From Chloroflexota bacterium (GTDB taxonomy: Bacteria > Chloroflexota > Chloroflexia > QHBQ01), in contig JAYUUN010000040.1 in the NCBI GenBank assembly GCA_043754535.1, forward strand, positions 1 to 48,949: a stretch of 48,949 nucleotides of DNA, written 5' to 3'. A program made the position numbers and the translations under genes. The notes beneath the pieces are model-generated. The model was not told the origin of the DNA. It saw only the letters and a list, made by a program, of their open reading frames with translations, and did no database searches. Every line of letters starts with the position of its first letter. The first letter of the stretch is position 1. Shown piece by piece: positions 1 through 48,949 of the stretch.

Positions 1-3000
1 TGGGGCGGAACAGGCCGTTCGCGCCGTTAACGATGTTGCGGCAAGCCAGGAACTGGATGTCGCCGTAGAAGATGTTGGTGGTCGGCACGTCGCTGAAGGT
101 GATCGAGCAGGGCGTGGCCGTCACAGTCGCGGTTGTGGTGCTGGTGGCAGTTACTGTCGGGGTGGCGCAGGCCGCCGCTATCTGACCGCGAATCTCGCCG
201 CCAGGGTAGTTGCTGCTGTGGATATTGAAGTACAGCCCGCCGGTTTGCAGGGCAGCAATCTGGGTCGGGGTCATGGTGCCGGTGCCAGTGAAGGCGTTGG
301 TGCCACTAACCGCATTGAGCGGGAAGATGACCGGACCAGCAGTGCCAGCCGCGCCCTGGTGGATGTGGGCAAAGAGGACAGTGGTGGTAATGCCAATGTA
401 GCTGAGGTTGGCTGTGAATGCGCCAGTTGCCGGGTTGAGCAGGACGGTGCCACTGCCGATTGCCAGCGAGGTATTCGGTGGGGTTTCCTGCGCGCCATTG
501 AGGGTAGCCGCGAAGTTGGTGGTCGAGCAGGGGGTGGCAGTAGCAGTTGGCGTGCCAGTAACGGTGGCAGTGGCGGTGATCGTGGCGGTTGGCGTGCCAG
601 TGACGGTAGCGGTGGCGGTGATCGTGCCAGTCGGGGTCACTGTTGGGGTTAGTACGGCCTGAATGGCAAGGCGGGCTACCTGCGGCTCATGGTCGCTGGC
701 CTGGTCGAAGAACTCCGAGTTGGCATGGACAACATCCAACTGGGGCTGACCGTTGGTGTAGAGGCTGGGGCTAACCAGAATCTGGTCGAGTACCTGCGCG
801 TTACCCTGGAACTCGTAGCTATAGCGTTCGTTCTGGGCCAGCAGGTCGAACAGGTTGACCAGTTCGGGCGTGCTGTCGCCACCGAGCTTGAGGACGTTGA
901 CCGTGTTGGAGAACTCAAAGTCGTTGATGTCGCCGAGGACGACGACCCTGGCGTTCGCGTCGAAGTTGAGGATTTGGCGCACGAAGCCGTTGACGATGGT
1001 AGCCTGCTGCTGGCGTTGCACTTCAGAGATGCGCACCGGTGGCTGGAAGCGGCCAAACACGCCGTTGTCGCCACCCTTCGAGTTGAAGTGGTTGACGATA
1101 AAGAACAAACGCTGGCCGTTGTAGCTGAACTCAGCAGTCAACGGCTTGCGGCTGCTAGTCCAGGCCACGTTGAGCGGGTCGATGCGCCCAGGGCTGAACT
1201 GCAACTGCGGGCCACCCGCGCCGTTAACGACCGTGTTGCTGATCGTCGAGCCGCCGCCGGGCCGCGAGTTGAAGCTGAGGCCGCGATCCGTGCGATAGAG
1301 GATGCCCTGGCGGATGTTGCCGCCCGGCTGACCGCCGTCCTGCCCATCTACCGGGTCGATCTGGGTGTAGGTGTAGTTGACCGTTGCGCTGATGCTGCTG
1401 ATGCTGTTAATCAGCAAGGCGTAGGTCTGGCTAGCATCAACCACACCGTTGTTGATCGCCCCGTTGTTGTCCTGGATTTCTTCAACCGCGATGATGTCGG
1501 GAGCCTTCAGGTTGTTGACGATCAGGTTGGAGAGACCCAGCACCTTAGTGATCGTGTCGCCGGGGTTGAGGTTCTCCAGGTTGAAGGTAGCCGCCGTCAG
1601 CTTGTTGCTCGGCTGGTCGGAGACGAGAGCGGTCACTTCACGGGTCAGCGGGTTGCTGGCAACCACTGGCTGGCTAGTCACTTGCAGCTTGAAGTTGACG
1701 AAGTTGTAGTCCAGCACGCCAGTGATCACGCCGCTGAAGGTCGCACTGACGTTGACGTTTGGCAGGCGGCCACCACCACTGGCACTAAGTACCAGGTCGT
1801 TGAGGATGATCCGCTCTGGGTTGAAGTCGTCGGTGGGGTTAGTGCTGGTTACGTAGCTAGCGGTAGCGGTAATTTCGATGCCGCCGCGCACGGTGCGGGT
1901 GCCAGTGGCGTAGCTGCCGTTGTCGGTCAGCACAGGGATTTCGCTGTTGGTGTTGAAGTCGTTGGTGGGGCCAACTGCAACCGTGTTGTTGACCCGCACG
2001 AGCATACCTTCCATGCTCTCGTAGAAGTCAATACCGTCTTGGGTGGGATCGAAGGTGTTGCTACCATTCTCCACGTCACCGTTCGTGTCGTTCTCGATCA
2101 CATTGGTGGGGGGAATGCGCCCGCCAGTACCGATGGTGATCGGGGTGGGTAGGGGGTTGCCGCTGGACAGCACTGTGATCACCCGCCCTGGGTTGTCGAT
2201 CTGGGTGGTCGTCAGGTTGTCGGGGTAACTGACCGCGCTAGCGCGGAACTCCTTGACCGTGCCGCTGAAGACGATGCTATCGCCCACTAGAACGGTCGGC
2301 GCACTGCTGGTGAAGATGAAGATTGCCTCTGAGGTTGCGTCGTTCAGGTCCGCAGTCGGGTCCTGCACATAGAAGCCGTTGGTCTTCTTGGCGGTGACAA
2401 TGCCGGGGATGTTGCTGACGACCGTGCCGCTGTAGGGCGAGAGGTGGCTGGCACCCTGGATGTCATGGATGCGGGTCGCAGGGCCAGGGGGGGTGCTGGT
2501 CACAGTGGGGGTGATCGTCGCGCTGGCGGTGGCCGTCGGGCTGCCGATGGTGGCCGTCGCGCTGGCAGTGTTGGTCGGGCCACCAGGGGTGTTGGTGTTG
2601 GTGGCCGTCGGCGGAGTGCCGCAGGGGTTGAGCGGGCTGCTGCTGTTGCGCGGCGCGGGCTGGCTCACCGAGAAGTCAATTGAGTTCCGGTCGCTGTCGG
2701 TGCAGCCATTGCCTGCCCGCAGGTCGGCAGTGGTGTTACTGGGCGCAGCAGCTGCAGCCACCCCCTCGAAGTTGTTGGCCGCGCCATAGCCCACGAAGTC
2801 GATGATCGTCAGCAGAGCAGTGCCACTGGGGAAGCAGTCGTTAGCCACGCTGCCACAGGCAAGGGTGGTAGTCCCGCCGACCAGGGCGACTTTGCCGTTA
2901 TTGTTGCTCAGGGCGAGCGTGCCAGTGTAATCTGGGGTTGGCAGTAGTGCGCCAATAGCAGCGTTACTGTTTAGCTTGATCAGGTAGTATTGGCCTGGGG

Positions 3001-3346
3001 CGATGCTGCCCGTCAGCGTGTTGACGTTGGTGGTAGTGAAGGCACTAGCGGCACTGGCATACTGGAGCGAGTACGCACTGAGGTTGATCGTTGCTGCACT
3101 GAGGTTGAGCAGTTCAACGTAGTCGTTCTGATAGGCTGCGCCAGTGTTGCCGCCGCCGCCATACACCTGGCTGATCGTGACGCTGGTGCTGACTGCTGGC
3201 TGGCTGATCGCCTTTGCAGGCTGCTGGGCAGTGAGGGTGCTGCCAGTGGCTGCCAGTGCGCTAATGCTGCTGAGCGTGATGGTGAGGACGATCACGAGGC
3301 TAAGACCAATCCACATGGGGCTACGCCGCTTGTTGCTGCTGATCAA
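1..3346 (-). CDS. Secreted, SLH-anchored extracellular nuclease: signal peptide, lamin-tail domain, OB fold, endonuclease/exonuclease/phosphatase domain, CHRD domain, SLH (3' end outside window)
   Basis: Missing from the ORF track because it runs off the edge; translated by hand. TTG at 3346 after GAAAGGGA. Motifs: VTISQVYGGGGNTGAAYQNDYVELLN (LTD); IHDIQGASHLSPY..GFYVQD (OB); TFNLENL, EEIQD, NHFNSKGGD, VLGDIND, LDQIL, SDHEP (EEP); AHIHQG..LYFNIHSSNYPGGEIRGQI (CHRD); FSDVPTTNIFYGDIQFLACRNIVNG (SLH). The frame is the same at both ends. Confidence 0.92.
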   Translation of the reverse strand, partial: MISSNKRRSPMWIGLSLVIVLTITLSSISALAATGSTLTAQQPAKAISQPAVSTSVTISQVYGGGGNTGAAYQNDYVELLNLSAATINLSAYSLQYASAASAFTTTNVNTLTGSIAPGQYYLIKLNSNAAIGALLPTPDYTGTLALSNNNGKVALVGGTTTLACGSVANDCFPSGTALLTIIDFVGYGAANNFEGVAAAAAPSNTTADLRAGNGCTDSDRNSIDFSVSQPAPRNSSSPLNPCGTPPTATNTNTPGGPTNTASATATIGSPTATASATITPTVTSTPPGPATRIHDIQGASHLSPYSGTVVSNIPGIVTAKKTNGFYVQDPTADLNDATSEAIFIFTSSAPTVLVGDSIVFSGTVKEFRASAVSYPDNLTTTQIDNPGRVITVLSSGNPLPTPITIGTGGRIPPTNVIENDTNGDVENGSNTFDPTQDGIDFYESMEGMLVRVNNTVAVGPTNDFNTNSEIPVLTDNGSYATGTRTVRGGIEITATASYVTSTNPTDDFNPERIILNDLVLSASGGGRLPNVNVSATFSGVITGVLDYNFVNFKLQVTSQPVVASNPLTREVTALVSDQPSNKLTAATFNLENLNPGDTITKVLGLSNLIVNNLKAPDIIAVEEIQDNNGAINNGVVDASQTYALLINSISSISATVNYTYTQIDPVDGQDGGQPGGNIRQGILYRTDRGLSFNSRPGGGSTISNTVVNGAGGPQLQFSPGRIDPLNVAWTSSRKPLTAEFSYNGQRLFFIVNHFNSKGGDNGVFGRFQPPVRISEVQRQQQATIVNGFVRQILNFDANARVVVLGDINDFEFSNTVNVLKLGGDSTPELVNLFDLLAQNERYSYEFQGNAQVLDQILVSPSLYTNGQPQLDVVHANSEFFDQASDHEPQVARLAIQAVLTPTVTPTGTITATATVTGTPTATITATATVTGTPTATATPCSTTNFAATLNGAQETPPNTSLAIGSGTVLLNPATGAFTANLSYIGITTTVLFAHIHQGAAGTAGPVIFPLNAVSGTNAFTGTGTMTPTQIAALQTGGLYFNIHSSNYPGGEIRGQIAAACATPTVTATSTTTATVTATPCSITFSDVPTTNIFYGDIQFLACRNIVNGANGLFRP
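549..630 (-). repeat. 42-bp imperfect tandem repeat encoding a Thr/Ala/Pro linker (TITATATVTGTPTA x2)
   Basis: GGCGTGCCAGT recurs at 549 and 591 with similar flanks; lies between the EEP and CHRD domains. Confidence 0.75.
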
Positions 3347-3596
3347 ATCTGTTCCCTTTCTCTAATACTACTTTCTTGCTGCCGAGGTAAATCACTCTAT
3401 AAGGCTTGCAGGTGGCAAACCCTAACGATTATATCAACCTTTCTTTAACGCAATGTAAACGGTGACAGTGCAAATCTTGCGATATTGGCGGAAACGCTAT
3501 TGCTATTTGTGCCGATGGCCGCTCACAGTTCTACAAGGCAGATGTAAAGGAGTGGGTACGAAGCAGGTGAGTTATAGACAGGAGCGCGTAAAAGGG

Positions 3597-4480: not shown

Positions 4481-5968
4481 ATGCAGGCCAAGACGACAGC
4501 GGTAACGGTGGGCGAAGAAGGGCAAAGCAACGACCACCAGCGCAAATGGATCATTCTAGCAACGGTTGCCCTCGGTACCTTCATGGGGACGCTGGACAGC
4601 AGCATCGTCAACATCGCGCTGCCGACTATCCGCCACCAACTGAATGCGGGCGACTCGGTGCAATGGGTGGTACAAGTCTACTTGCTGACGATCACCAGCA
4701 CCTTGCTGATCATGGGTAGGCTGTCCGACCTGCTGGGACGGCGGCGGGTATACGTTGGTGGGTTCGCCCTCTTTACGGTCGCCTCGCTACTCTGCGGCTT
4801 CGCCTGGGACTTGTGGTCGCTGGTCGCCTTCCGTCTGCTGCAAGGGCTGGGCAGCGCGATGATCTTCGCAATTGGCCCGGCCATCATCGCCGACACCTTC
4901 ACGCCACGAGAGCGGGGTCAAGCCCTCGGCTGGGTGGGGACAGTGGTGGCGGCGGGTAGCTCGGCTGGGCCGGTGATCGGCGGTCTCCTGCTTGGTAGCT
5001 TCGGTTGGCCCGCTATCTTCTTCGTCAACGTGCCGGTGGGCATCTTCGCGGTCTGGAGGGCCTGGAAGATCATCCCGGAGGGGGGGACGCACCGTAGCCG
5101 CCGCTTCGACGCGACAGGGGCGGTCTTGTTTGCGCTGGGGGTGATCTGCCTGCTGCTGGCCCTCGACTTCGGTTCGCAGCGGGGCTGGGGCAGCAGCCTG
5201 GTGATCGGTCTGTTTGTTGGTGCGGCGGTGCTGCTCGGCAGCTTCTTTGCCTGGGAGGGGCGGGTGCGCGAGCCGATGCTGAACCTCAGTCTGTTCCGCA
5301 TCTGGCCTTACACGGCGGCTCTGGCAGCAGTGGGCCTCAGCTTCACCGCCAGTGCCGCCAACCTGTTCGTGCTGCCGTTCTACCTGCAAACCATCCTCGG
5401 CTACCCACCAGAGCAGGCAGGCTTCATCCTGCTAGCCGGGCCACTCGCCCTCTTGGTAGTATCGCCGCTCGGTGGACGGCTGGCCGACCGCTTCGGCGCA
5501 CGCTGGGTCGCCAGTGGTGGGTCGATCCTGGTCGCCATCGGCTACTTCCTGCTCGCTGGCCTACAAGCAAGCTGGGTCTGGCAGGATGTAGTCTGGCGGC
5601 TGGTTCTCTTGAGCGTCGGCTTCGGCCTGTTCCAGTCGCCCAACAATGCCTCGGCCCTCAACGCTGCGCCAGTTGCCGAACGTGGCATCGCCAGCAGCAT
5701 GATCCCCTTCATGCGTAACTTCGGCCTCGTGCTAGGCATAGCGGTAGGGGCAGCAGTCTGGTACAGCCAGCGGGCTGTCTACGCCAGTAGCCACGCTCTG
5801 CGCCCAGAGGATACTGCCGCGCAGATTGCAGGGCTGCAAATTGTCTACTATATGCTGACTGGCTTGCTGCTGCTCTCGGCTAGCATCAGCCTCTCACGCG
5901 GCAAGCTGCCCATGCAGGAGGAGCCACCGCTCGCAGTGGAGGGCCAGCCCGCCAGCTTCAGCCACTTA
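4481..5968 (+). CDS. MFS drug:H+ antiporter, DHA2 (EmrB/QacA) family
   Basis: LDSSIVNIALPTI, GRLSDLLGRRR, GPVIGG..WPAIFFVNVPVG; about 14 TM segments; AAGGAG RBS. End given at the in-frame TTA (5966-5968); the standard-code end is 6049, overlapping the ALDH gene by 81 bp. Confidence 0.9.
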
Positions 5969-8371
5969 CTACTCGCCGTAAGGTACCCAAATGTTCTTCA
6001 CCTGGGTCGCTTCGCGCAGGAACTCCTGGCCTTCAGCGTGGCTAGATAGCCAGTCGGTGGCCCGGCCCAGGCTTGTCCAGGTACGCTTCATGTTACCAAC
6101 GCTGGCTAGCTCCACCTGCTTGCTGCCCGCAGCGGTGCCAAAGTACCAAACGCCATCCACATCGTCATGCTCGGCCAGCACCTTCGCCAGCGGCTCGCGT
6201 GGGCCAGTCACAATGTTGACCACCCCAGCGGGCAGGTCGGAGGTGTCGAACACCTGGTAGAGGTCGGTGGCAGAGAGCGGGTGCAGCGGCGAAGGAACGA
6301 CCACCACCGTGTTGCCCATCGCAATTGCGGGGGCGACCAGGGAAACGAAGCCCAGTAGCGGCGCGTCGTCGGGACAAAGGATACCCAGCACCCCGACTGG
6401 CTCATTCATCGCCAGGGTGACATTGCGCGAGGGGGTGGAGTGTACGAGGCCGTCGTACTTGTCGGCCCAGGCTGCGTAGGTGAACAGGCGCGAGATTGCT
6501 GCCTCCACCTCTGCTACGCCGTCGCCGCCAGTCTGCTGGGCGAGGCGGGCAGCAAACTCGGCAGCGCGGACGGCTAGGTTCTCAGCGATGTAGTAGAGTA
6601 CCTGCGCCTTGTTGTGGCCGTAGGCCATTGCCCAGCCCTCAGCTGCGTGGGCCGCCTCAACCGCATTGCGGATGTCCTTGCGGTTGCCTTCGCCCACCAG
6701 CCCAATCTCGCGCCTCCCCGCCCCATAGATCGGCATTGAGTAGCCGCTATCGGGTCGGGCCTGCTTACCACCGATGTACATCTTCGGGGTGCGGTCGATC
6801 ACCGGCAAGGCTGAACGGCCACGCTCTGCTACCCTGCTCCCCCCCACGAGGTCAGCGGGAGAAGCGGGAGACTCGGCAAGGGCTGCTGGCTCTGCGCCAT
6901 TGTCCCGCAGCTTGAGGTACTCCCACAGCCCCTCCTTGCCGCCTTCACGCCCGTAGCCACTCTCACGGTAGCCGCCAAAGCCGCTGGCTGCGTCAAACTG
7001 GTTGGTGCAATTGACCCAGACGGTGCCAGCCTTGATCTGGCGGGCGATGTCCAGCGCGAGGTTGAGGTTGTCGCTCCAGACGCTGGCGGCCAGGCCGTAG
7101 CTGGTGTTGTTCGCCAGGGCGACCGCCTCGGCTGGGGTGCGGAAGCTCATGCTGACCAGCACCGGGCCGAAAATCTCGGTCTGCGCTATCATCGAGGCGG
7201 GCGACACGTCGGTTAGTAGCGTCGGCGGGTAGAAGCTGCCTTCAGTGGGACACGACCAGGAGGGCTGCCACAAGGTCGCGCCCGCAGCCACACCCTGCTG
7301 CACCAGCGCATCGATCTGCTCAAGCTGGCTGGGTGAGACTATCGCGCCAATATCCATTGCCTTGTCGAGCGGCTGACCGACCCGCAGCTTCTCCATGCGG
7401 GCGCGCAGCTTCGCCAGCAGCTTCTGCTCAACGCTCTCCTGCACCAGCAGCCGCGACCCCGCGCAGCAGACCTGCCCCTGGTTGAACCAGATCGCGTCCA
7501 CCACCCCCTCCACCACACTGTCCAGGTCGGCATCGGCGAAGACGACGAAGGGCGACTTACCGCCCAGTTCGAGCGACAGCCGCTTGCCAGTGCCAGCCGT
7601 CTGCTGCCGTAGGGTACGGCCCACCTCGGTCGAGCCAGTGAAGGCGATCTTGGCAACGTCGGGGTGTGCGACGATAGCTGCGCCCGCTGAACCAGCATCG
7701 CCAGTAATGATGTTGACCACGCCAGCAGGCAGGCCCACCTCGCGGCAAATCTCGGCGAAGGCCAGGGCGGTCAGTGGGGTGTAGCGGGCGGGCTTCAGCA
7801 CAACAGTATTGCCCATCGCCAGGGCGGGCGCGATCTTCCAGGCCATCATCATCAGCGGGAAGTTCCAGGGGATGATCTGCCCAACCACGCCGAGCGGGGC
7901 GTAGTCGCGCAGTTCGCTCTCCATCAATTGCGCCCAGCCCGCATAGTAATAGAAGTGGCGGGCAACCAGCGGCACATCAATGTCTCGCGTTTCGCGGATC
8001 GTCTTGCCGTTGTCCAGCGACTCTAGCACGGCTAGCAGGCGCGAGTGCTTCTGTATCTGGCGAGCCAGGGCGTACATCCAGCGGGCGCGGGCGTGGCCCG
8101 GCAAACTGCTCCAATCCTTGAAGGCAGCAGCGGCAGCAGCGACCGCTGCATCCACGTCGGCAGGGTTGGCCGCCGCGATCTTCGCCAGTGGCTTGCCGTT
8201 CGCGGGGTTGGTTGTCTCCAGGTACTTGCCACTCTGCGGCTGTACCCACTCGCCACCGTAGAACAACTCGAACTGGCCGCCATGCTCCTTCAGCCATTCC
8301 ATAGCCGGGTTAGCCGCCTCTGGGGCTGGGCCATATGCCATCGTCTCAAAGATTTCTGCCACGCTAGTCAT
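5969..8371 (-). CDS. Aldehyde dehydrogenase, ALDH16-like (full ALDH plus a second partial Rossmann-type domain)
   Basis: IIPWNFPL, AFTGSTEVG, LELGGKSP, GQVCCAGSRL (catalytic Cys), EIFGPV, then a repeated N-terminal-like domain; 800 aa; downstream of deoC. Confidence 0.93.
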   Translation of the reverse strand: MTSVAEIFETMAYGPAPEAANPAMEWLKEHGGQFELFYGGEWVQPQSGKYLETTNPANGKPLAKIAAANPADVDAAVAAAAAAFKDWSSLPGHARARWMYALARQIQKHSRLLAVLESLDNGKTIRETRDIDVPLVARHFYYYAGWAQLMESELRDYAPLGVVGQIIPWNFPLMMMAWKIAPALAMGNTVVLKPARYTPLTALAFAEICREVGLPAGVVNIITGDAGSAGAAIVAHPDVAKIAFTGSTEVGRTLRQQTAGTGKRLSLELGGKSPFVVFADADLDSVVEGVVDAIWFNQGQVCCAGSRLLVQESVEQKLLAKLRARMEKLRVGQPLDKAMDIGAIVSPSQLEQIDALVQQGVAAGATLWQPSWSCPTEGSFYPPTLLTDVSPASMIAQTEIFGPVLVSMSFRTPAEAVALANNTSYGLAASVWSDNLNLALDIARQIKAGTVWVNCTNQFDAASGFGGYRESGYGREGGKEGLWEYLKLRDNGAEPAALAESPASPADLVGGSRVAERGRSALPVIDRTPKMYIGGKQARPDSGYSMPIYGAGRREIGLVGEGNRKDIRNAVEAAHAAEGWAMAYGHNKAQVLYYIAENLAVRAAEFAARLAQQTGGDGVAEVEAAISRLFTYAAWADKYDGLVHSTPSRNVTLAMNEPVGVLGILCPDDAPLLGFVSLVAPAIAMGNTVVVVPSPLHPLSATDLYQVFDTSDLPAGVVNIVTGPREPLAKVLAEHDDVDGVWYFGTAAGSKQVELASVGNMKRTWTSLGRATDWLSSHAEGQEFLREATQVKNIWVPYGE

Positions 8372-25179: not shown

Positions 25180-27729
25180 TTGAAGCATCGCTTGTTCCTG
25201 CTCGTCCTCGTCGTCAGCCTGCTGCTCCCGACCCTCGCACAGGCGCAGAGCCAGCCAGCCCCCAGCGGCGGCACCTCCACCGCGACGGCCACCGCTGACC
25301 CTCCCAGCGCAACCCCCAGCCCAGCCACGTCCCTGACCGTCACTCCCACCCCGACCGCTACTGCTACCCTGACTGCAACTGCGACTGCGGCTGTGATTGC
25401 CACTGCCACCACCACCGCAACTGTGACTGCCACCGCGACTGCGACAACTGCCCCGCCGCCAACGGCTACGCCCGCCGCCAACCAGTATGACGTGGTGGTA
25501 GTGGGCGGTACCTCGGCGGGCGTGGCGGCTGCGGTCGCCGCAGCCCGGCTGGGGGCGCGGGTTGCCCTGGTCGAGGAGAGCGGCTGGCTGGGCGGCATGG
25601 TCAGTGCGGGCGGCCTCGGCGCAACCGACGGCAACCCGACGGCGATCAGCGGCCTGTTCGAGCAGTTTCGCCTGGCAGTGCGTGCCTACTACCGCAGCCA
25701 GCGCAACAGCGGCCAACTGCAATGCTACAGCCCGCCGCCGCTGCTCGTGGATACCAACTTCGAGCAGCCAACGGTGGCTGGGGCGATGCAGGCTAAAGCG
25801 GGCGGCGGCAGCTATTACAGCGGCCACTCGCTCTACACCTGGTACACCAACACCGCTACTACCCCGCCGACGCACGCCGCCTACCTGCAAGTCTACAACC
25901 TGGTCTGCAATCTTGCGAATGACTACCCCACTGACGGCTTCACCTACGAGCCACTGGTGGCCCAGAACCAGATGAGGCAACTGCTGCAAGGGCTGACCGT
26001 CACTCTGATGCTCAACACAGCTTACAGCGGGGTGATCACTGTGGGTAACAGCGTGCGTGGGGTCTACGTCCTCAGCGAGGGGCAGAGCAGTGCGCTCTAC
26101 GGCAAAGTGGTGATCGATGCGACCAGCCGCGGTGACGTGCTGGCCGACGCTGGCACCCGCTGGCAGGACTATGCCTTTGGCCGCGAACGTAGCAGCACCG
26201 ATAATACCGCCCCGCTCCCTTTGCGTCCACGCACCTTTGACGAACTGGACGCGGGCAAGACCTTCGTGCCGCCCCAGGTTGGCGAGTCGGTCGGTGACGG
26301 TGACTACGGGCTGCAAGCCTACAGCTACCTGATGACCCTCGTCTACCAGCCGAGCCGCAGTATGCCGCACCCCTTTGCCAGTATTGCCGATCCACAGGGG
26401 CGCACTGGCGACCAGAACAGCCTCTATCAGGCCTATGTGCAGCAGTTTAGCACGACCAATGGCGCAAACAGCATCGGCTACTTCAACGACATCTGGTTCA
26501 ACTGGCGGCGGTTGCTGCCGAACAACAAGATCGAACTGAACTATGCCGACATCCCTGGCGGCAACTACCTCTCGGTCGAGCGCGAGGACAACTACCTGAC
26601 CAACCCCGCCAGCCGCTCGTCTATCGAGCAGCAGCACCGCCTCTACGCCCTCAGCTTTGTCTACTGGGCGCGCCAGCGGGTGCCTGCCGCCCAGGGCTGG
26701 CTGCCTACCAACGAGTACGGCACAGCAGACGGCCTGCCACCCTTGCTCTACATCCGCGAGGGTAATCGAATGATCGGTGAATACACCCTCAGCGAGCGCG
26801 ATTACGCCTGCTTCAGCCAGGGGTGCAGCACGGTCAGTCGCTACTTTACCGACAGCATCGCCACCGGCCAGTACGCCTTGGACTCGCATACTGTGCGCTT
26901 GATCGCTGACGGCAGCGGCGGGCAGTTCGCAGATGGCAATATGTGGTTGGGCAACAGCCAGCCCTACCAGGTGCCATACCGCGCAATCGTACCGCTCAGG
27001 TTGGATGGTCTGTTGGTGCCGCTGGCGGCCTCGGCCACCCACCTCGGCTTTGGCGCGTTGCGGATGGAGCCAGTGCGGGCGGCAATGGGTCAGGCGGCGG
27101 GGGTCGCGGCGGCGCAAGCGGCGGCAGCCAACATCCAGCCACGGGCAGTCAACCTGCGGGCGGTGCAGCGCGAACTGATCCGCCAGAAGGCAGCTACCTA
27201 CACCTACATTGATGTGCCAAATAGTTACTGGGCCTGGACTGCGATCAGTTGGCTCAATGCGCGTGGGGTAGTGCAGGGAACTGGGCCGAACCTGTTTGCA
27301 CCCAACGCCCAGGTGCGGCGGGCTGAGCTAGCCAAGATGCTGACCCAGGCGCAGGGCTGGCCGTTGCTCAACCCTGCTACCGCCACCTTCCGCGATGTGT
27401 CAGCCGGCAACTTTCTCTACCGCTACGTGGAGACTGCCTACGCTCATGGGGTGATCAGCGGCTACAGCGACGGCAACTTCCAGCCCTACGCCAGCGTAAC
27501 GCGGGAGCAGATGGCGAAGATGCTAGCCGCTGCGGCTGGCTTCGGCCCCCAACAGCCAGCCAACCCCAGCTTCAGCGACGTGTCGCCCAGCAATATCTTC
27601 TACGGCTGGGTAGAGGCCGCCCGACTGCACGGCCTGATGCAAGGGACGAGCGCGACCACCTTCTCGCCGCGCGGCACTCTGACGCGGGCGCAGGCGGCCC
27701 AGGCAGTCTTCAACCTGCTAGGCGAGTTA
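25180..27729 (+). CDS. Secreted SLH-anchored FAD-dependent oxidoreductase (FAD_oxidored family)
   Basis: Signal peptide, Thr-rich linker, YDVVVVGGTSAGVAAAVAAA, IDATSRGD, YIREGNRM, YQVPYRAIVP, SATHLGFGALRMEP, three SLH repeats. End given at TTA 27727-27729; the standard-code end is 27825. Confidence 0.9.
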
Positions 27730-29295
27730 GCCCTTAGCCAACTCGCGGCGGAACAGCAGCCAGTTGATCACGAAGAAGATCAGCCCCATCGTTGTCAGTG
27801 CGCCGATCACGTAGTCGGTCGGTAGCTGGCCGCGCAGCATGACCTGCTGGAAGCCCTGGATGCCGTGAGTGATCGGCAGCCCCTGCGCTCCATACTGCAC
27901 GTACTGGTTGAAGCTGCTGAGCGAGAGGAAGAAGCCGCTGAAGAAGACAGAGGTGAGCAGCACCAGCATCGACAACTGCACCGCCTGCGACTCGGTCTGC
28001 GAGATCAGGCTGATGAAGAAGCCCAGGCCCAGGCTGGCGAAGACCAGCGCGAGGGCAGTCAGGCTGAACCAGAGGGGGTCGCCCTTGAACGGCACGCCCA
28101 GCAGCGGGCTAACTAGCGCAGCGACCAGGGCAGCAGCGACCACCGCCACGAACAGGATGTAGGCAACGTACTTGCTGACCAGGATTTCGGTGGCGCGGAT
28201 CGGGGCGACGCGGAACAGTTCGAGCGTGCCAATTGTCCGCTCACGCACTAGCGAGAGGGCCGCGAAGGTGACAGCGATGTGTTGGAGCAGCAAGGCGAGG
28301 ACGGCAGGGGTGTAGTAGTTGATGAAGTTAATCTCAACGCCGTTGGGGTTGTCCTCCTTGCTGGCCTCATTCTTGACGATGGCGCGGAAGGGGGAGACGA
28401 GGACACCAGGGGCGATGTTGGTGATCTGCCCAGTCGTCGCTTCCAGGGTAGCGAGGTCTTCATCTACCTGCTTGAGGCGTTGCACCTGCTGCTCCCGACT
28501 CGCCTGGCCGCGCAGGGCATCGCTGCGGATCGCTTGCACGTTGTCGTTCAGGCGGCGGATGGCAGTCTGCGCCTTGTTGATGCTGTCTACCTTCTGCTGC
28601 CCTGCTGGGCTGATCGGTAGTGTTGCTAGCTGGTCGTTGTTCACGGCACCGCCTGCGACGGCGAGAACTACCAGGACGGAGTTGCTGCTGGTCAGCAGGT
28701 CGCCACTCTCCTTCGTCACCGCCTGCACGTCGTTGGCCTGCAAGCCCACCTGCAAGCGGTTGACCGCCTGGCGCAACTGGCCCACCTGCCCCTGCAAGTC
28801 GGTGAGGCCCGCCTGCCCCTGCTTAAAGCCTGCTTCGAGGATGCGCTTGTTCAGTTCATTAGAATAGGCATAGGTAAGGAAGTAGACGATGTTGATCTTC
28901 ACCGGGTCAATCTCATTGACGTTGAGCCGCAATTCGGCTTGCTTGCCGCCCAGGATGTCGCTGTAGGGGTCGGTAGGGATCACCGCCACCGCATCTACGC
29001 GGCGGTCATGTAGTTCACTCATCGCCCGGCCCAGGTCTTCCGTCACTTCACGCACGTCCAGTTGCTCAACGGCAAACTGCTTCTTGATCTCCGCGCTGCG
29101 AGACTGCGTCCCTGGCGGCCCCACGATGATCGTAGTCAGGCTCTGCTGCTTGCTGACATAGCCGATACCGAAGATAAAGAGGATGAGGAAGGGGCCAAGT
29201 ACCAGGGTAAAGACTAGGCGCAACTGCCGCCGCACCTCGGCTACCTCCTTGCCCAAAAACGCGCTGAGGCGCACCAGCATCTTGACTAGCGGCAT
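27727..29295 (-). CDS. ABC-2 type exporter permease with a large extracytoplasmic helical domain
   Basis: FLGKEVAEVRR, SLVRERTIGTLELFRVAP, 1+5 TM topology. Confidence 0.9.
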   Translation of the reverse strand: MPLVKMLVRLSAFLGKEVAEVRRQLRLVFTLVLGPFLILFIFGIGYVSKQQSLTTIIVGPPGTQSRSAEIKKQFAVEQLDVREVTEDLGRAMSELHDRRVDAVAVIPTDPYSDILGGKQAELRLNVNEIDPVKINIVYFLTYAYSNELNKRILEAGFKQGQAGLTDLQGQVGQLRQAVNRLQVGLQANDVQAVTKESGDLLTSSNSVLVVLAVAGGAVNNDQLATLPISPAGQQKVDSINKAQTAIRRLNDNVQAIRSDALRGQASREQQVQRLKQVDEDLATLEATTGQITNIAPGVLVSPFRAIVKNEASKEDNPNGVEINFINYYTPAVLALLLQHIAVTFAALSLVRERTIGTLELFRVAPIRATEILVSKYVAYILFVAVVAAALVAALVSPLLGVPFKGDPLWFSLTALALVFASLGLGFFISLISQTESQAVQLSMLVLLTSVFFSGFFLSLSSFNQYVQYGAQGLPITHGIQGFQQVMLRGQLPTDYVIGALTTMGLIFFVINWLLFRRELAKG

Positions 29296-39170: not shown

Positions 39171-40670
39171 ATGGAAACAGTAGAGAGCAAGCCCCGTTTG
39201 GGAACGTTGGTGGCGATCAGCTTCGGTTTGTTGCTGCTGCTGGGCAGCCTGTTCGTTGCAGGATCAGCCCTCGCTGGGCAGAGCAGCGGCCACCAGCACC
39301 ACGCAGGCGCGCAACCCCCAGCCAGCTTCCTCGATGCCAGCCACATTGGCCCCAGCAGCGTGATCACGGTGGAGATGGGCGACAACTTCTTCGCCCCCAC
39401 CGTAGTAACGATCACCGCTGGCGACACTGTGGTTTGGCACAATGGCGGTAACTTCTTCCACAATGTGCGCGCAGATAGCAGCACCGGGCCGCTTGGTTAC
39501 ACCCAGCCGCAGGACTTCCTGACCGACTTTGCCGCCCCGGAGTCGAATGTTGGGCAGCCGCATAGCGTGCAGCACACCTTCTACCGCCCTGGTCGCTACT
39601 ACTACTGGTGCGACCCACACGCCCCTGACATGGCTGGCATTGTAGATGTGCTGCCGCAGGTGGTGCCAGTAGCAATAGGCAACAACTTCTTCAGCCCCAA
39701 TGTGGTCACGATTACCGCTGGTACCGTGGTCTCGTGGACAAACCCGACCAGCAACGCCCGCTCTCACACCGTCACCTCCACCACCCCGCCTGGTATCCTC
39801 AACTCTGGCACACTGGCGGCAGGTAATGTTTACACCCACGCCTTTGCTACTGCTGGCACCTATCAATACCAATGTGACTTCCATGCTGGCATGGCTGGCA
39901 CCGTAGTGGTGATCGACCCACCCACGCCCACGCCAACCCCTGGCCCAACCAACACCAGGGCCGCTAGTAGTCCAACTGCTACTACTGCTGCTGCTACCCC
40001 CACGGCCACCGCCGCCGCTGGCAGTGCGACAGCTACCCCTGGCGGCGCGACAGCTACCCCCTGTACCGTCAGCTTCACCGACGTGCCTAGTGGCTATATT
40101 TTCTACAACGAAATCCAGTACCTCGCCTGTCGTGGTGTCCTCAGCGGGTACCCCAACCCGAACCCGCCCGGCGGCAACAGCTTCCTGCCAAACAACAACA
40201 CGGCGCGAGGCCAGTTCGCCAAAATCGCCGCCCTCGGCTTTGGCTTGCCCGCCTTCACCCCAACTGGCAGCCAGACCTTCGTAGATGTTGCCCCCGGTAG
40301 CATCTTCTACGGCTACGTGGAGACTGCCGCTCATGCCGGGGCGGTCAACGGCCTGGCGGCCAGTCAGTGTGCCGCCCTCGGCACCCCCGGCAACTGCTAC
40401 GGCCCCAACGTGCTGATCAGCCGCGTACAGGTCGCCCTGATCGTGCAGCGCGTGCGCCAGTACGCCGTCGTCACCCCAACCCAGCCGACCTTCCGTGATT
40501 TGGCGGCCAACTCCTTTGGCTACGCAGCGGTTGAGACGCTGGCGAACCGGGGGATCATCAACGGGGCGGCTTGCAGCAGTGGCGGCGGCACTTGCTTCCG
40601 GCCTAATGATAATGTCAAGCGCGGTGAATTGTCCAAGATCGTCAAGCGAGCGATTGACAGCGCACCCTGA
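39171..40670 (+). CDS. SLH-anchored double cupredoxin (plastocyanin/azurin-like), paralog 1
   Basis: Signal peptide; FHNV..YWCDPHAPDM and SHTV..YQCDFHAGM type-1 Cu sites; Thr/Ala linker; three SLH repeats; ends KRAIDSAP-TGA. Confidence 0.9.
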   Translation: METVESKPRLGTLVAISFGLLLLLGSLFVAGSALAGQSSGHQHHAGAQPPASFLDASHIGPSSVITVEMGDNFFAPTVVTITAGDTVVWHNGGNFFHNVRADSSTGPLGYTQPQDFLTDFAAPESNVGQPHSVQHTFYRPGRYYYWCDPHAPDMAGIVDVLPQVVPVAIGNNFFSPNVVTITAGTVVSWTNPTSNARSHTVTSTTPPGILNSGTLAAGNVYTHAFATAGTYQYQCDFHAGMAGTVVVIDPPTPTPTPGPTNTRAASSPTATTAAATPTATAAAGSATATPGGATATPCTVSFTDVPSGYIFYNEIQYLACRGVLSGYPNPNPPGGNSFLPNNNTARGQFAKIAALGFGLPAFTPTGSQTFVDVAPGSIFYGYVETAAHAGAVNGLAASQCAALGTPGNCYGPNVLISRVQVALIVQRVRQYAVVTPTQPTFRDLAANSFGYAAVETLANRGIINGAACSSGGGTCFRPNDNVKRGELSKIVKRAIDSAP

Positions 40671-40768
40671 GTGCGCCCACCCACTTGCTAGCAATGGTAT
40701 AATGAGTAGGAGCGGCGGACAAGCTGCTCCTGCTCTTTGCTGTCCTGGATCAAGAAGGAGAGACGCTG

Positions 40769-42379
40769 ATGCGAGATGAGAAGCGTTTGCCCATCCTACC
40801 GCTGTTGGCCCTTGCCCTCGGCCTTACCATGCTGGTTAGTGGGCTGCTCATTGCTGGCTCAACCCTGGCGGCCCCTGCAAACCACAGTCTGCACCAGCCG
40901 CAGGGGGGTCTACCCTGCGACCAACGCCAGTTTGATGTGGATGCCAGCAACCACCCAGCCAACCAATCGATCACCGCTACCGTCGCGATCCAGAACTTCT
41001 GCTTTACCACCCGTGTGCTAACGATCACGGTTGGTGATACCGCCGCCTGGGACAACTACGACCAGATCGGCCACAATGCTTCAACGCTGAACAGCGGCAG
41101 CATCCCGCCAGAACCATTCCAGACCGCCTATGCCATCTCACCGACTAATCGCATTGTTAGCCGCACCTTCACCCTGGCCGGGGTCTACGACTACCTCTGC
41201 GACCCGCACCCGTTCATGACTGCGCGGATTGTGGTGCTGCCTGCGCCAGTGGCAATAAACATCCAGGGCTTCACCTTTGCCCCCCAGGTGCTGACCGTTA
41301 CGGTTGGCACGAGGGTGCAGTGGACGAACCGTGATGCTGCCAGCCACACCGTCAACTCGACCAGCCCACCGGGGGTGCTGAACTCTGGCAATCTTGCCCA
41401 GAACGCGATCTACAGCTACACATTCAGCACGGCTGGCACCTACGATTACCAGTGCAATATCCACACCGGCATGACTGGTCGTGTAGTCGTGCTTGGCCTG
41501 CCGCCCACCACAACCAGCACACCGAGTGCCATCCCCAGCCCGACTGCAACCACCCCCGGCCCACCAACGCGCACCTATACGCCCACGCCAACCTTCTCAG
41601 CCACCACCTGCCCGCCCTCGGTCTGCTGTGCTGGCGACAGCAACGACCCCCAGTGTACGACCACGCCCGGCCCACCAACGCGCACTTATACACCCACGCC
41701 GACCTTCTCAGCCACCACCTGCCCGCCCTCGGTCTGCTGTGCTGGCGATAGCAACCACCTCCAGTGTACGACCACGCCCGGCCCGCCAACGCGCACTTAC
41801 ACGCCCACGCCCACATCCACCCCTTGCCAACGCAGCTTCCCTGACGTGCCTGGCAGCTACATCTTCTACGACGACATCATCTTCCTCGCCTGTCGTGGGG
41901 TGATCAATGGCTATGCGGACGGTAACTTCAGGCCAAACGGCAACACAACGCGGGGTGAAGTGACGAAAATCATCGTCAGCGGCTTTGGCATCCCGCTGGT
42001 AACGCCGCCCGCCACGCCGCGCTTCGTGGACGTGCCAGCCAATCACCCCTTCTACCTCTACGTTGAGACGCTGGTTGGCAGGCAAGTGGTCAGCGGCTTC
42101 CCCGACGGCAACTTCCGCCCAAATGGGCTGGTGACGCGGGCGCAGCTAGCCAAAATCGTGGTAGGGGCTGGGAGCTACACCCTGGCAACCCCCACTGTAC
42201 CGACCTTCAGCGACGTGCCGAGCAGCAACGTCTTCTGGCAATACATCGAAACGCTGAACAGCAGGGCGATCATCAGCGGTGCGGCTTGTGGCAGCGGCCT
42301 CTGCTATCGCCCCAACGACAGCATCAAGCGCGGTGAACTCAGCAAGGTTGTGCATAGGGCGATAGACTCGACCCCTTTA
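40769..42379 (+). CDS. SLH-anchored double cupredoxin, paralog 2
   Basis: GHNA..YLCDPHPFM and SHTV..YQCNIHTGM; Cys-containing tandem linker; three SLH repeats; HRAIDSTP-TTA aligns with the paralog's stop. The standard-code end is 42532. Confidence 0.9.
41549..41815 (+). repeat. 111-bp (37-aa) tandem repeat, about 2.4 copies
   Basis: TTPGPPTRTYTPTPTFSATTCPPSVCCAGDSNxxQCT units start at 41549, 41660 and 41771. Confidence 0.93.
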
Positions 42380-42451: not shown

Positions 42452-42461
42452 GGCCTGGAGT

Positions 42462-43184: not shown

Positions 43185-43234
43185 TTTCTTTCTCCTTCGG
43201 GTGGGGCAGCGGGCAGGGGCGTCAGCCCAAACCC

Positions 43235-45034: not shown

Positions 45035-45048
45035 CTTGTAACTCGTTT

Positions 45049-46023: not shown

Positions 46024-46025
46024 TG

Positions 46026-46904: not shown

Positions 46905-46911
46905 AAGGTAA

Positions 46912-46940
46912 AGTTTAGTTTGCCAGGGCTGGAATGTCAA
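46912..46940 (-). promoter_or_regulatory. Sigma70 promoter of the methyltransferase operon (probably leaderless)
   Basis: Minus-strand TTGACA (46940-46935), 17 nt, TAAACT (46917-46912); ATG 7 nt downstream; no SD. Confidence 0.7.
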
Positions 46941-46953
46941 GCCGAAACGCTAA

Positions 46954-46982
46954 TTGACCTCTCACGCAGCGGTCGTTATAAT
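46954..46982 (+). promoter_or_regulatory. Sigma70 promoter of iscS
   Basis: TTGACC (46954-46959), 17 nt, TATAAT (46977-46982). Confidence 0.75.
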
Positions 46983-47036
46983 GATAGCAGGAAACAGCTA
47001 CCGATCTCCATAGGCATTGCGCTAGAACAGGGTGAA

Positions 47037-48242
47037 ATGATGGATGTTTTGCTCAACAGCGGCTCGCGCCGCCTCAACAGCGGCTCGCGCCGCCTCTACT
47101 TCGACCACGCCGCGACCACGCCCCTCGCCCCAGAGGTGCTAGCCGCCATGCTACCCTACTTCAATGCCAGCTATGGCAACCCCAGCAGCATCCACGCTGA
47201 GGGGCGGCTGGCACACGAAGGGTTGGAAGCGGCGCGGCGGCAGGTGGCAGCGGTGCTGCATTGCCGCCCGCAGGAAGTGATCTTTACCAGCGGCGGCACA
47301 GAGAGCGACAACCTCGCGCTCAAGGGGGTGGCTCTAGCTCACGAAGGTGGTCACATCATCACCAGCGCAGCAGAGCATCACGCGGTGCTGCACAGCGCAG
47401 AGTACCTTGCCCACCTCGGCTTCAAGGTGACATATCTACTAGTAGACAGATTTGGCATGGTCAGCCCCGACGATGTGGCAGCAGCGATCCAGCCCGACAC
47501 GCGGCTGATCAGCATCATGTACGCTAACAACGAGGTGGGGACGATCAACCCAATCCCGCAGATTGCAGCGGTGGCGCAGCAGGCTGCTGTGCCGTTCCAC
47601 AGCGATGCAGTGCAGGCGGGTGGCAGCCTCGACCTTGATGTGGAGCGGCTGGGGGTAGACTTGCTCTCGCTCTCGGCCCACAAGTTCTACGGGCCAAAGG
47701 GGGTGGGTGTGCTGTACGTCCGCGGTGGCAACCACTTGCTCTACCAACAGAGTGGCGGCTCGCAGGAGAGCAAGCGGCGGGCTGGCACGGAGAATGTGGC
47801 AGGGATCGTCGGCCTCGCCACCGCCCTAACCATCGCCGAGAGCAAGCGGGAGGTTGAAGCGGCCCGTCTGCTTGGCTTGCGCGAGCGGCTAATCGGGGGA
47901 GTGCTGAGCAGCATCCCCGACGCGATCCTCAACGGCCACCCTGTGGAGCGGCTACCTGGCAATGCCAACTTCTGCCTGCCCGACGTGGAGGCAGAGACGC
48001 TGTTGCTACGCCTCGATCTGCTGGGCATCGCGGCTAGCTCGGCCTCGGCTTGCACCAGCGGGGCGGTCGAACCAAGCCATGTGCTGCACGCAATGGGTAT
48101 CCCCGACGCACTGGCAGTGGGTAGCCTGCGCTTGAGCCTCGGCGCAAGCAACACGGAGGCCGACATAGACTATGTTCTCGCCAAACTGCCCGCCGTGGTC
48201 AACAGGCTACAGAGCCTGAAGTTGCACGAACGAAGTAGCTAA
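47037..48242 (+). CDS. iscS: Cysteine desulfurase (IscS/NifS group I)
   Basis: YFDHAATTP, GNPSSIH, FTSGGTESDN, HSDAVQ, SAHKFYGPKG (PLP Lys), RAGTEN, SASACTSG. Confidence 0.93.
   Translation: MMDVLLNSGSRRLNSGSRRLYFDHAATTPLAPEVLAAMLPYFNASYGNPSSIHAEGRLAHEGLEAARRQVAAVLHCRPQEVIFTSGGTESDNLALKGVALAHEGGHIITSAAEHHAVLHSAEYLAHLGFKVTYLLVDRFGMVSPDDVAAAIQPDTRLISIMYANNEVGTINPIPQIAAVAQQAAVPFHSDAVQAGGSLDLDVERLGVDLLSLSAHKFYGPKGVGVLYVRGGNHLLYQQSGGSQESKRRAGTENVAGIVGLATALTIAESKREVEAARLLGLRERLIGGVLSSIPDAILNGHPVERLPGNANFCLPDVEAETLLLRLDLLGIAASSASACTSGAVEPSHVLHAMGIPDALAVGSLRLSLGASNTEADIDYVLAKLPAVVNRLQSLKLHERSS
47052..47093 (+). repeat. Perfect 21-bp tandem duplication (LNSGSRR x2)
   Basis: CTCAACAGCGGCTCGCGCCGC twice, head to tail. 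Confidence 0.95.
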
Positions 48243-48246
48243 CCAA

Positions 48247-48783
48247 TAACTCCAACGTAGGCGTGTGCTGGCCTACTTCGTTGTGGATCAACTTGACACT
48301 GTGTGGTAGCAGCGGCATGATCGCGCCAATGCACTCGCGCACTGCGTTCGGGCTGCCGGGCAGGTTGACGATCAACGTGCCACCGCGCTGCACTGCCACG
48401 CTGCGCGAAAGATAGCTGAGGATGGTGTACTGCGCCGTTCCCACCCGCATCAGTTCGCCGTAGCCGGGTACGATACGCTGGCCGACTGCCAGCGTTGCTT
48501 CGGGGGTCACATCGCGGGCGGTCAGGCCGGTGCCACCCGTAGTGAGGATCAGGTCTAGTTGTAGATCGTCGGCCCAGCGGATCAGGGTCGCCTCGATCTG
48601 TGCCTGCTCGTCTGGCACAACGGCGTACTGGGCGATAACCGCACCCGCCAGCCCCGCTACGATCTCGCGCTGGGCCTGCTGACCGCTAAGGTCATCGTTG
48701 TTTGGGTCGCTATGCCTGCTGTCGCTGACCGTCAACACGCCCACCTTGATCTGCTCGTCTCCACCATGCTCGTGCTTCATCAC
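48247..48783 (-). CDS. mog: Molybdopterin adenylyltransferase MogA/MoaB
   Basis: VLTVSD, DLSG, VVPDE, TTGGTGLTARDVTPEAT, SRSVA, NLPGSP. End given at TTA (48249-48247); the standard-code end is 48199, overlapping iscS. Confidence 0.92.
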
Positions 48784-48806
48784 ATCTCCTATAGTTGGGT
48801 TGGGGG

Positions 48807-48949
48807 CTAGGCTTTCTCGCCCAGCCGCCGTTCGGTGCCTTTGAGCAGGCGATCAATGTTGTCTTTGTGGGCGGCAATGACGAAGATGGGCAAGATGATG
48901 AAGAACAGGTAGAGCCAGTTGGCCTGTTGCAACAAGACCGCGATCAAGA
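48807..48949 (-). CDS. plsY: Glycerol-3-phosphate acyltransferase PlsY, C-terminal fragment
   Basis: Manual translation ..IFVIAAHKDNIDRLLKGTERRLGEKA* matches the PlsY C-terminal HxxNIxRLxxGxE motif. Confidence 0.85.
   Translation of the reverse strand, partial: LIAVLLQQANWLYLFFIILPIFVIAAHKDNIDRLLKGTERRLGEKA

What the first reader, a model, noticed from the sequence alone, without database searches (positions are those of the whole stretch)
1..48949. TTA absent from gene bodies although other A-ending codons are used freely
A manual frame check of TTA (plus-strand genes) and mirror TAA (minus-strand genes) found no internal TTA across more than 40 kb of Leu-rich coding sequence, including membrane proteins. 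CTA, ATA, GTA, TCA and TTG are plainly used, so GC bias alone is an unlikely explanation. An alternative is a Streptomyces bldA-like rare regulatory codon, but that would not place TTA at gene ends. The scan was by eye and could have missed a case.
Basis: seen in the sequence. Interest (0 to 1): 0.7.

Follow-up and report, generated by a model that had tools for sequence, protein, structure and literature searches.

The report
Bacterium reads TTA as stop codon
In this uncultured Chloroflexia bacterium and its four sampled family members, the triplet TTA, which normally means leucine, behaves as a fourth stop signal; I found such a switch described only for mitochondria and plastids, and standard annotation mis-extends or fuses about 8% of the genes.

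Summary
Observation confirmed. The explanation is a changed genetic code: UUA is a fourth stop codon.

Window: 0 internal TTA among 1,688 Leu codons; 4 of 35 complete genes end at TTA. Genome: 247 of 2,936 genes end at TTA, and coding signal collapses after TTA as after TAA/TAG/TGA, not after CTA/ATA/GTA/TCA/TTG. TTA aligns with standard stops of orthologues and occurs at 0 of 4,994 Leu positions shared with two outgroups, which use it 122 times.

All five sampled genomes of this family show the pattern; the sister families sampled do not. All five share an altered RF2 codon-reading head (E. coli numbering D143E/A, L201M, F207Y, H214Q; S205 kept), while RF1 is canonical. tRNA(UAA) was not found in genus g1, but genus g2 keeps one with a broken 31-39 pair, which is unexplained.

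Known precedents are organellar (PMC12574857); Codetta cannot detect sense-to-stop changes (PMC9825746). There is no proteomic or biochemical proof. The scan had not noted this before, and its note e1-3585524 (a 'gene fusion') is an artefact of this code.

The parts
4481..5968 (+). DHA2/EmrB-type MFS transporter, 495 aa, ending at TTA (5966-5968)
   Evidence: Family. With TTA as stop it abuts, with a 0-nt gap, the TAG stop of the convergent aldehyde-dehydrogenase-like gene 5969-8371(-); table 11 would run it 81 nt into that gene.
5966..5968 (+). TTA stop codon 1
25180..27729 (+). FAD oxidoreductase with three SLH domains, ending at TTA
   Evidence: Pfam PF12831 and PF00395 x3. It ends on the same three bases as the convergent gene 27727-29295(-).
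27727..27729 (.). One triplet used twice: TTA stop on +, TAA stop on -
   Evidence: 12 such pairs among 90 convergent TTA-ending genes genome-wide; unchanged in runs X5 and X6
27727..29295 (-). ABC-permease-like gene (named from its translation) whose TAA stop is the reverse complement of the neighbour's TTA stop
40769..42379 (+). Cupredoxin + SLH protein, 536 aa, ending at TTA (42377-42379)
   Evidence: Pfam. Its tandem paralogue 39171-40670 ends with TGA at the same aligned residue. TTA is conserved in G001 while the downstream 'extension' diverges.
39171..40670 (+). Paralogue used as internal control (ends at TGA)
48247..48783 (-). MogA/MoaB-type molybdopterin-synthesis protein ending at TTA (48247-48249)
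   Evidence: Family. TTA gives a 4-nt gap to the convergent gene ending 48242; table 11 would overlap it by 44 nt. TTA is at the same place in G001.
1..48949 (.). Whole window = contig G000:C40. The other 31 complete genes end in TAG (13), TGA (11) or TAA (7); no gene has internal TTA. RF2 (G000:C73), RF1 (G000:C103) and the tRNAs lie on other contigs.

Best explanation
UUA has been reassigned from leucine to stop throughout one family of uncultured Chloroflexia (handles G000-G004), giving four stop codons (UAA, UAG, UGA, UUA). Shown from sequence: TTA marks gene ends and is excluded from coding interiors. Inferred: RF2 reads UUA, its second-position pocket relaxed from A/G to A/G/U by family-specific changes, D143E/A and L201M being the best candidates, on a background of F207Y, H214Q and L328Y/F (E. 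coli numbering). Also inferred: UUA is a weaker, minor stop, and the cognate tRNA was lost (genus g1) or disabled or repurposed (genus g2). A plausible route is codon capture: TTA became rare, RF2 changed, and TTA re-entered at gene ends.
For: (1) Mean codon log-odds over 15 codons before/after the first in-frame TTA: 0.106 to -0.21 (n=220). TAA 0.156 to -0.248, TAG 0.159 to -0.248, TGA 0.114 to -0.296; CTA 0.182 to 0.167, TCA 0.165 to 0.151, TTG 0.188 to 0.173. The same drop is seen in G001, G002, G003, G004 (n=25, 22, 9, 6) and not in G009, G010 or pooled f2/f3. (2) Orthologues: the isocitrate-dehydrogenase TTA is codon 360 and 15 of 15 relatives stop at aligned position 360-361 (14 of 14 without unpublished G012). 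The SerS TTA aligns exactly with TAG, TAA, TAG, TAG in the 4 family members. Three ArgS models end at their last position on residue 687, and TTA is codon 688. (3) At positions where both orthologues have Leu, G000 uses TTA 0 of 2,440 (G009 uses it 40) and 0 of 2,554 (G010 uses it 82). Orthologue length is closer to the TTA end than to the table-11 end in 38 of 42 pairs, some genes recurring. (4) Against G001 (90% nucleotide identity): 18 of 21 TTA ends are kept, one is TGA, and one of 60 TAA ends is TTA; TTG (0 of 1,593), CTA (0 of 1,138) and CTG (0 of 5,780) never align to TTA. (5) Stop-like geometry: TTATG stop/start overlap in 17 of 220; shared TTA/TAA triplet in 12 of 90 convergent pairs. 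(6) RF2: D143 is E or A in 11 of 11 family sequences covering the site and D in 137 of 137 others; L201 is M in 12 of 12 and L in 137 of 137. The family sequences overlap and are not independent; the 137 include three unpublished genomes. The RF1 reading motifs are canonical in 5 of 5, and G000 has only two PF00472 matches. (7) Precedent: an altered organellar RF2 accompanies UUA-stop in labyrinthulean mitochondria and peDinoflagellate plastids (PMC12574857, passages and section 9 part 1).
Against: No proteomics, ribosome profiling or release assay. Genus g2 (3 of 3 genomes) still encodes a tRNA with anticodon UAA and Leu-type D arm and A73, though with a C31-A39 mismatch seen in 0 of 12 outgroup copies, so partial read-through is possible there. 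Absence of the tRNA in G000/G001 is weak evidence: they are 87-89% complete, and G000 also lacks Thr(GGT), Pro(CGG) and Ala(TGC). One plausible 149-aa gene (G000:C103:85234-85683, -) has TTA at codon 57 behind a good-looking promoter and RBS, and no orthologue was found to test it. Two of 21 TTA ends align to sense codons in G001 (CTA, GCA), and 2 of 109,107 aligned sense codons are TTA in G001 (6 are standard stops). In 4 of 42 orthologue pairs the length was closer to the table-11 end; outgroup SerS tails are as long as the table-11 extension, and MurC was weakly informative. H214Q alone is not causal: the motif pattern matched 57 of 401 phylum genomes, some not RF2, and H214Q lineages use TTA inside genes. 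S205, which I take to be the residue changed in the organellar cases, is intact. A role for D143 in second-base reading is recalled; I found no passage on it in the papers read.
Confidence: 0.93

Rival explanations
1. UUA is a leaky or dual-meaning codon: mostly stop, but read as Leu at a fraction of sites or under some conditions by the retained odd tRNA(UAA) (genus g2). This is a refinement of the best explanation, not exclusive of it.
For: tRNA(UAA) is conserved in 3 of 3 g2 genomes with a compensatory stem change. TTA ends fall from 62 to 22 across codon-bias quintiles and are 0 of 18 in the ribosomal-protein cluster. A standard stop follows within 3 codons for 15.2% of TTA ends, against 7.8-12.3% for the other stops.
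Against: g2 shows no TTA at conserved Leu (0 of 5,613 in G002). The 5 g2 cases with more than 40 codons after TTA look like gene ends, including a gene split at the same linker by standard stops in G000. The tRNA was not found in g1.
Confidence: 0.25
2. UUA is unassigned: no factor reads it, ribosomes stall, and a rescue pathway or spontaneous drop-off releases the protein.
For: tRNA(UAA) not found in G000/G001; tmRNA present.
Against: Essential genes (ArgS, SerS, DnaB, GatA, MurC, RuvB) end at TTA, and tmRNA rescue would tag them for degradation (established knowledge). No third PF00472 protein such as ArfB was found in G000. RF2 changed at otherwise invariant sites in exactly this clade.
Confidence: 0.04
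3. Termination occurs by a +1 frameshift from TTA-G/A onto TAG/TAA, not by reading UUA.
For: G follows TTA in 113 of 205 confident genes (55%), more than after TAA (38%) or TGA (40%).
Against: 76 of 205 TTA ends are followed by T or C, which gives no shifted stop; these include the TTATG overlaps and three of the four window genes.
Confidence: 0.02
4. TTA is an extremely rare Leu codon (bldA-like regulation or GC bias), and the short C-terminal tails are real.
For: High-GC relatives use TTA rarely (3 of 1,297 in G006). One possible internal case in G000.
Against: Position at orthologous stops, collapse of coding signal, stop-type overlaps, and absurd table-11 fusions (ICDH 660 aa; GT-C/GH35 1,573 aa). 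bldA-type use needs the tRNA and internal codons.
Confidence: 0.01

Closest known systems
UUA (and UCA) as stop in peDinoflagellate plastids (PMC12574857, read: passages, sections 3, 4 and 9 part 1)
   Same: Leu-to-stop at UUA; codon only at 3' ends; apparent gene fusions that are annotation artefacts; normal RF1 and altered RF2.
   Different: Organelle with about 64 genes versus a bacterial chromosome with about 2,900 called genes. There RF2 'Ser204' is replaced; here the SPF serine is kept (I equate the two; not verified). There UCA is also a stop; here TCA stays sense. There no cognate tRNA exists; here one genus keeps an altered one.
UUA stop in labyrinthulean mitochondria (as cited in PMC12574857; NCBI table 23, Thraustochytrium, is recalled)
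   Same: Same codon and same direction; RF2-type factor implicated.
   Different: Mitochondrial; different RF2 substitution.
UUA/UUG stops in Pycnococcus/Pseudoscourfieldia and Marsupiomonadales mitochondria (PMC6551751 and PMC12574857, passages)
   Same: Leu-to-stop.
   Different: Both UUR codons and an RF1-type factor there; here TTG remains a common Leu codon (12.9%) and RF1 is canonical.
Known bacterial alternative codes (UGA to Trp/Gly, recalled; five clades from the Codetta screen, PMC9825746 passages)
   Same: Lineage-wide codon reassignment in bacteria.
   Different: Those are stop-to-sense or sense-to-sense. [quoted passage not shown]
Streptomyces bldA/TTA regulation (recalled)
   Same: TTA nearly absent from core genes.
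   Different: bldA codons are internal and read as Leu by a dedicated tRNA; here TTA sits at gene ends.

Membership tests
UUA Leu-to-stop reassignment (organellar type) | UUA absent from conserved Leu positions | tested here: met
   0 of 2,440 and 0 of 2,554 against outgroups; 1 of 5,613 against G002, and that one lies past the orthologue's stop
UUA Leu-to-stop reassignment (organellar type) | UUA at 3' ends where homologues have a stop | tested here: met
UUA Leu-to-stop reassignment (organellar type) | No cognate tRNA(UAA) gene | tested here: inconclusive
   Not found in 2 of 2 g1 genomes (incomplete); present with a C31-A39 mismatch in 3 of 3 g2 genomes
UUA Leu-to-stop reassignment (organellar type) | Altered codon-binding region of a class-I release factor | tested here: met
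   RF2 D143E/A, L201M, F207Y, H214Q, L328Y/F; RF1 canonical
UUA Leu-to-stop reassignment (organellar type) | Substitution of RF2 'Ser204' (taken as the SPF serine) | tested here: not met
   Ser in 12 of 12 family sequences; the numbering equivalence is assumed
UUA Leu-to-stop reassignment (organellar type) | Peptide release at UUA shown by proteomics or in vitro | not testable with these tools
   No proteome or ribosome data; the one RNA run held mostly dnaK-like pieces of other organisms
bldA-type rare regulatory TTA codon | TTA internal in a subset of genes and read as Leu | tested here: not met
   Of 41 genes with 40 or more codons after the first TTA, I judged by eye one to be a plausible internal case
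GC-driven codon rarity (standard table 11) | TTA rate like GC-matched relatives, spread along genes | tested here: not met
   Central TTA/Leu 0.02-0.12% in G001-G004 against 1.4-3.7% in relatives; median distance to the table-11 stop 14-23 codons against 142-224

The most novel reading that the evidence does not exclude
This is the first sense-to-stop reassignment in a cellular (non-organellar) genome: a free-living bacterial family with a 60-sense, 4-stop code, read by a naturally evolved RF2 that accepts U at the second position through a route different from the organellar one. One genus has lost tRNA-Leu(UAA) and the other keeps a stem-broken copy, so two stages of the reassignment are preserved.
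Probability: 0.8. Interest if true: 0.96.

Novelty: new variant of a known kind. Interest (0 to 1): 0.93.

Why it matters
A 2025 paper called the plastid case the first sense-to-stop change outside mitochondria (PMC12574857), and the largest prokaryotic screen could not detect this class (PMC9825746). My ten literature searches (open-access library only) found no bacterial case. If it holds, turning a sense codon into a stop is possible in a genome of thousands of genes, and models of code change become testable in a bacterium with close standard-code sister families. It supplies a natural RF2 whose second-base specificity can be dissected in E. coli. It implies a barrier to incoming genes and phages: relatives use TTA for 1.4-3.7% of Leu, so many foreign genes would be truncated (inference). 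It also suggests that other sense-to-stop codes may be hidden in GTDB.

Tried and rejected
- The ARAGORN 'tRNA-Pyl (cta)' at G000:C31:4032-4124 lies inside a 367-aa ORF and has no Rfam tRNA match; rejected. TAG behaves as a normal stop.
- ARAGORN with introns at a relaxed threshold gave only noise. At the default threshold there was no (taa) tRNA.
- A strict tRNA pattern and a BLAST query suggested tRNA(UAA) was missing in all five family genomes. A looser pattern overturned this for genus g2.
- H214Q and F207Y as the cause: rejected as sufficient, since they occur in other Chloroflexota with D143 and L201 intact and, for H214Q, with internal TTA. For the 70-76%-GC family with both changes, the 3-kb loci hold too few TTA to judge, and larger stretches were not obtained. 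L328F also occurs in Gemmatimonadales.
- The prfB frameshift site might have used UUA: it is the usual CTT TGA C in 4 of 4 family genomes with that region plus one metagenome contig.
- UCA as a further stop: no drop after TCA, and TCA/TCN is like relatives.
- Viral searches gave no phage attributable to this family; CRISPR spacers were not searched.
- RNA run X11 was uninformative.
- Passages searched in PMC5378476, PMC6742477, PMC8131318, PMC5776981, PMC7530605 and PMC11903333 held nothing on D143 or L201; PMC5592688 is not held. No supplements were read, and Fig 6B/S12 of PMC12574857 may bear on the RF2 comparison.
- No structure or complex prediction was run.
Full report
Observation. The window is contig C40 of genome G000 (3.87 Mb, 61% GC, 88.9% complete). 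Public records of its four family relatives are titled Chloroflexia or Chloroflexi MAGs. In 36 curated window genes there are 1,688 Leu codons and no internal TTA, while CTA (151), TTG (248), GTA (131), ATA (28) and TCA (24) are used. Under table 11, four genes have one TTA 16-51 codons before their stop. Genome-wide, TTA is 41 of 44,719 central Leu-box codons. Same-order relatives of similar GC use it for 1.4-3.7%, so the deficit is not GC bias.

TTA sits where stops sit: the window. Ending the MFS gene at TTA 5966-5968 makes it abut the stop of the convergent gene with no gap. The SLH-oxidoreductase ends on 27727-27729, which is TTA on + and TAA on -, so one triplet ends both genes. The cupredoxin-SLH gene ends at TTA exactly where its tandem paralogue ends at TGA. 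The MogA-type gene ends 4 nt from its convergent neighbour. Contigs from two other studies carry the same triplets at 27727 and 42377.

TTA sits where stops sit: the genome. I built a codon log-odds gene caller that gives TTA and the stops no weight. With four stops it,936 genes: TAG 1,117, TGA 887, TAA 685, TTA 247. Coding score falls from 0.106 to -0.21 across the first in-frame TTA (n=220), like the standard stops. The other 14 sense codons printed stay positive afterwards (lowest AGA, 0.141 to 0.076). Standard stops that follow a TTA have non-coding sequence in front of them. TTA forms TTATG stop/start overlaps in 17 of 220 cases and shared TTA/TAA triplets in 12 of 90 convergent pairs. 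Of 2,648 table-11 genes, 203 have an in-frame TTA and 41 have 40 or more codons after it. By eye these are two genes fused in frame, long 3' read-through, or mis-set starts, with one plausible internal case, C103:85234-85683.

Homologues. Isocitrate dehydrogenase has TTA at codon 360; 15 of 15 relatives stop at 360-361, whereas table 11 gives a 660-aa fusion. The SerS TTA aligns with TAG, TAA, TAG and TAG in the four family members; outgroup SerS tails are longer and uninformative, and MurC is weak. NCBIfam ArgS models end at their last column on residue 687, with TTA next; the HutU model ends at residue 563, with TTA at 566. At Leu positions shared with outgroups G009 and G010, G000 uses TTA 0 of 2,440 and 0 of 2,554 times, and the outgroups 40 and 82 times. 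Orthologue ends fit TTA better than the table-11 stop in 38 of 42 pairs. Against G001, 18 of 21 TTA ends are conserved, TTA exchanges with TGA and TAA once each and with a sense codon twice, and TTG, CTA and CTG never align to TTA in 8,511 codons.

Extent. In fetched samples (about 77-490 kb per genome, not whole genomes) TTA ends 25 of 349 genes in G001, 26 of 282 in G002, 9 of 50 in G003 and 6 of 45 in G004, with the same drop in coding score. In the sister families sampled there is no drop, and TTA is spread along genes. The change therefore predates the split of the family's two genera and is absent from the sister-family genomes sampled.

Machinery: release factors. G000 has two class-I release factors. 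RF1 keeps its canonical reading motifs in all five genomes. RF2 differs from 137 nearest non-family RF2 sequences at, in E. coli numbering from the alignment to PDB 1ml5: D143 (E/A against D 137/137), L201 (M against L 137/137), F207 (Y; 5/137), H214 (Q; 5/137) and L328 (Y/F against L 137/137). Papers place these near the codon. Helix alpha5 and the recognition loop confer specificity, and F207T broadens it (PMC11903333, passages). S205 and T216 contact bases 2 and 3 (PMC5776981, passages). The RF1 histidine that I align to H214 stacks on base 2 (PMC3974865, passages). Residue 329 backs R213 (PMC7530605, passages). D143 lies three residues after the Glu equivalent to RF1 E123; its role at base 2 is recalled, not read. 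H214Q is common elsewhere in the phylum, where TTA is still used internally, so only D143 and L201 were unique among the sequences seen. That RF2 reads UUA is inference from this correlation, which is a single evolutionary event.

Machinery: the tRNA. G000 has 44 tRNAs by Infernal; ARAGORN gives Leu CAA, CAG, TAG and GAG and no TAA, but three other isoacceptors are also missing. A loose pattern matched 0 of 2 genus-g1 genomes, 3 of 3 genus-g2 genomes, 22 of 26 f2, 4 of 9 f3 and 1 of 1 f4; the CAA-type control pattern matched 5 of 5 family genomes. The g2 gene is a full tRNA-Leu(taa) (53-54 bits) with a C31-A39 mismatch in 3 of 3 copies, against 0 of 12 outgroup copies. g2 also has a separate Leu(TAG)-type match. 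Four-pair anticodon stems occur in 5.6% of bacterial tRNAs (PMC13092985, abstract, sections 4 and 17), so the mismatch is suggestive only. Because g2 still excludes TTA from coding interiors (0 of 5,613), this tRNA is probably outcompeted by RF2, reads UUG, allows low read-through, or has a non-ribosomal role. This is unresolved.

Strength of the stop. TTA ends decline from 62 to 22 across codon-bias quintiles, are 0 of 18 in the ribosomal-protein cluster, are followed by G in 55% of cases, and have slightly more nearby backup stops. This fits a minor, less efficient stop. A +1 shift onto TAG/TAA cannot explain the 76 of 205 ends followed by T or C.

Known systems and novelty. UUA-as-stop is documented in labyrinthulean mitochondria, peDinoflagellate plastids and, with UUG, in some green algal mitochondria (PMC12574857; PMC6551751, passages). 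PMC12574857 calls the plastid case the first outside mitochondria. Codetta cannot detect this class (PMC9825746, passages). Ten searches of the open-access library (the other papers they returned were seen as listings only) showed no bacterial case; subscription journals are not covered. It works like the organellar cases but fails their specific RF2 serine test and only partly meets the tRNA-loss test. I therefore file it as a new variant of a known kind: new for cellular genomes, known for organelles.

e1-3585524 described a 1,573-aa GT-C/GH35 fusion of 4,722 letters. That matches G000:C1:32852-37573, where TTA is codon 784, a Met follows 7 codons later, and the glycosidase model begins at residue 800, model position 9. 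Under the four-stop code these are two ordinary genes of 783 aa each.

Unpublished genomes G007, G012, G015 and G034 enter only tallies; no claim depends on them.

Verdict: real, family-wide, very likely a new bacterial genetic code.

Noticed in passing
L387:118-201(-), L388:112-195(-), L389:120-202(+) (G004, G002, G003): tRNA with anticodon UAA retained in genus g2, with a conserved C31-A39 mismatch and an acceptor stem resembling G000's Leu(TAG) tRNA more than outgroup Leu(TAA).
   Followed up: partly
L244, L245, L246, L247, L288 (prfB 5' part): The prfB +1 frameshift site CTT TGA C is kept, but the upstream Shine-Dalgarno-like stimulator looks weakened in all family sequences compared with 9 outgroups; RF2 autoregulation may be retuned.
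   Followed up: no
G000:C103:85234-85683 (-): 149-aa membrane-like ORF with TTA at codon 57: a recent nonsense mutation, a downstream start, or a true exception; no orthologue found.
   Followed up: partly
G000:C1:32852-37573 (L085): The 'GT-C/GH35 fusion' of note e1-3585524 is two genes separated by a TTA stop. About 20 similar false fusions are visible.
   Followed up: yes
G000 tRNA set: Arg CGN codons are served by tRNAs GCG, TCG and CCG; no ACG tRNA was found. tRNA-Sec and tmRNA are present.
   Followed up: no
G000:C45:29783-32248 (L086): DnaB of 821 aa matches its models in two parts (about 6-215 and 576-814), suggesting an intein.
   Followed up: no
L046:8468-10199 and G000:C70:4909-6681: A two-domain protein that I recognise by eye as NnrE/NnrD-like is split into two genes at the linker, by TTA in G003 and by standard stops in G000.
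   Followed up: partly
L001:4359-5044: CRISPR array with 10 copies of a 37-nt repeat next to type I restriction-like and McrB-like ORFs; spacers were not searched.
   Followed up: no
L258-L272 (other Chloroflexota families): RF2 variants with H214Q, an Ile at the Val after L201, and an altered 326-329 segment; they use TTA internally, but other codon effects were not examined.
   Followed up: partly
window 39171-42379: Two tandem cupredoxin + Thr/Pro linker + SLH paralogues; SLH-tailed proteins are frequent in this genome and several end at TTA.
   Followed up: no
L390:1281-5936 (viral contig): Array of 21 tRNA genes including two Leu(taa) and one with a TTA anticodon (ochre-suppressor type); no link to this family shown.
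   Followed up: no
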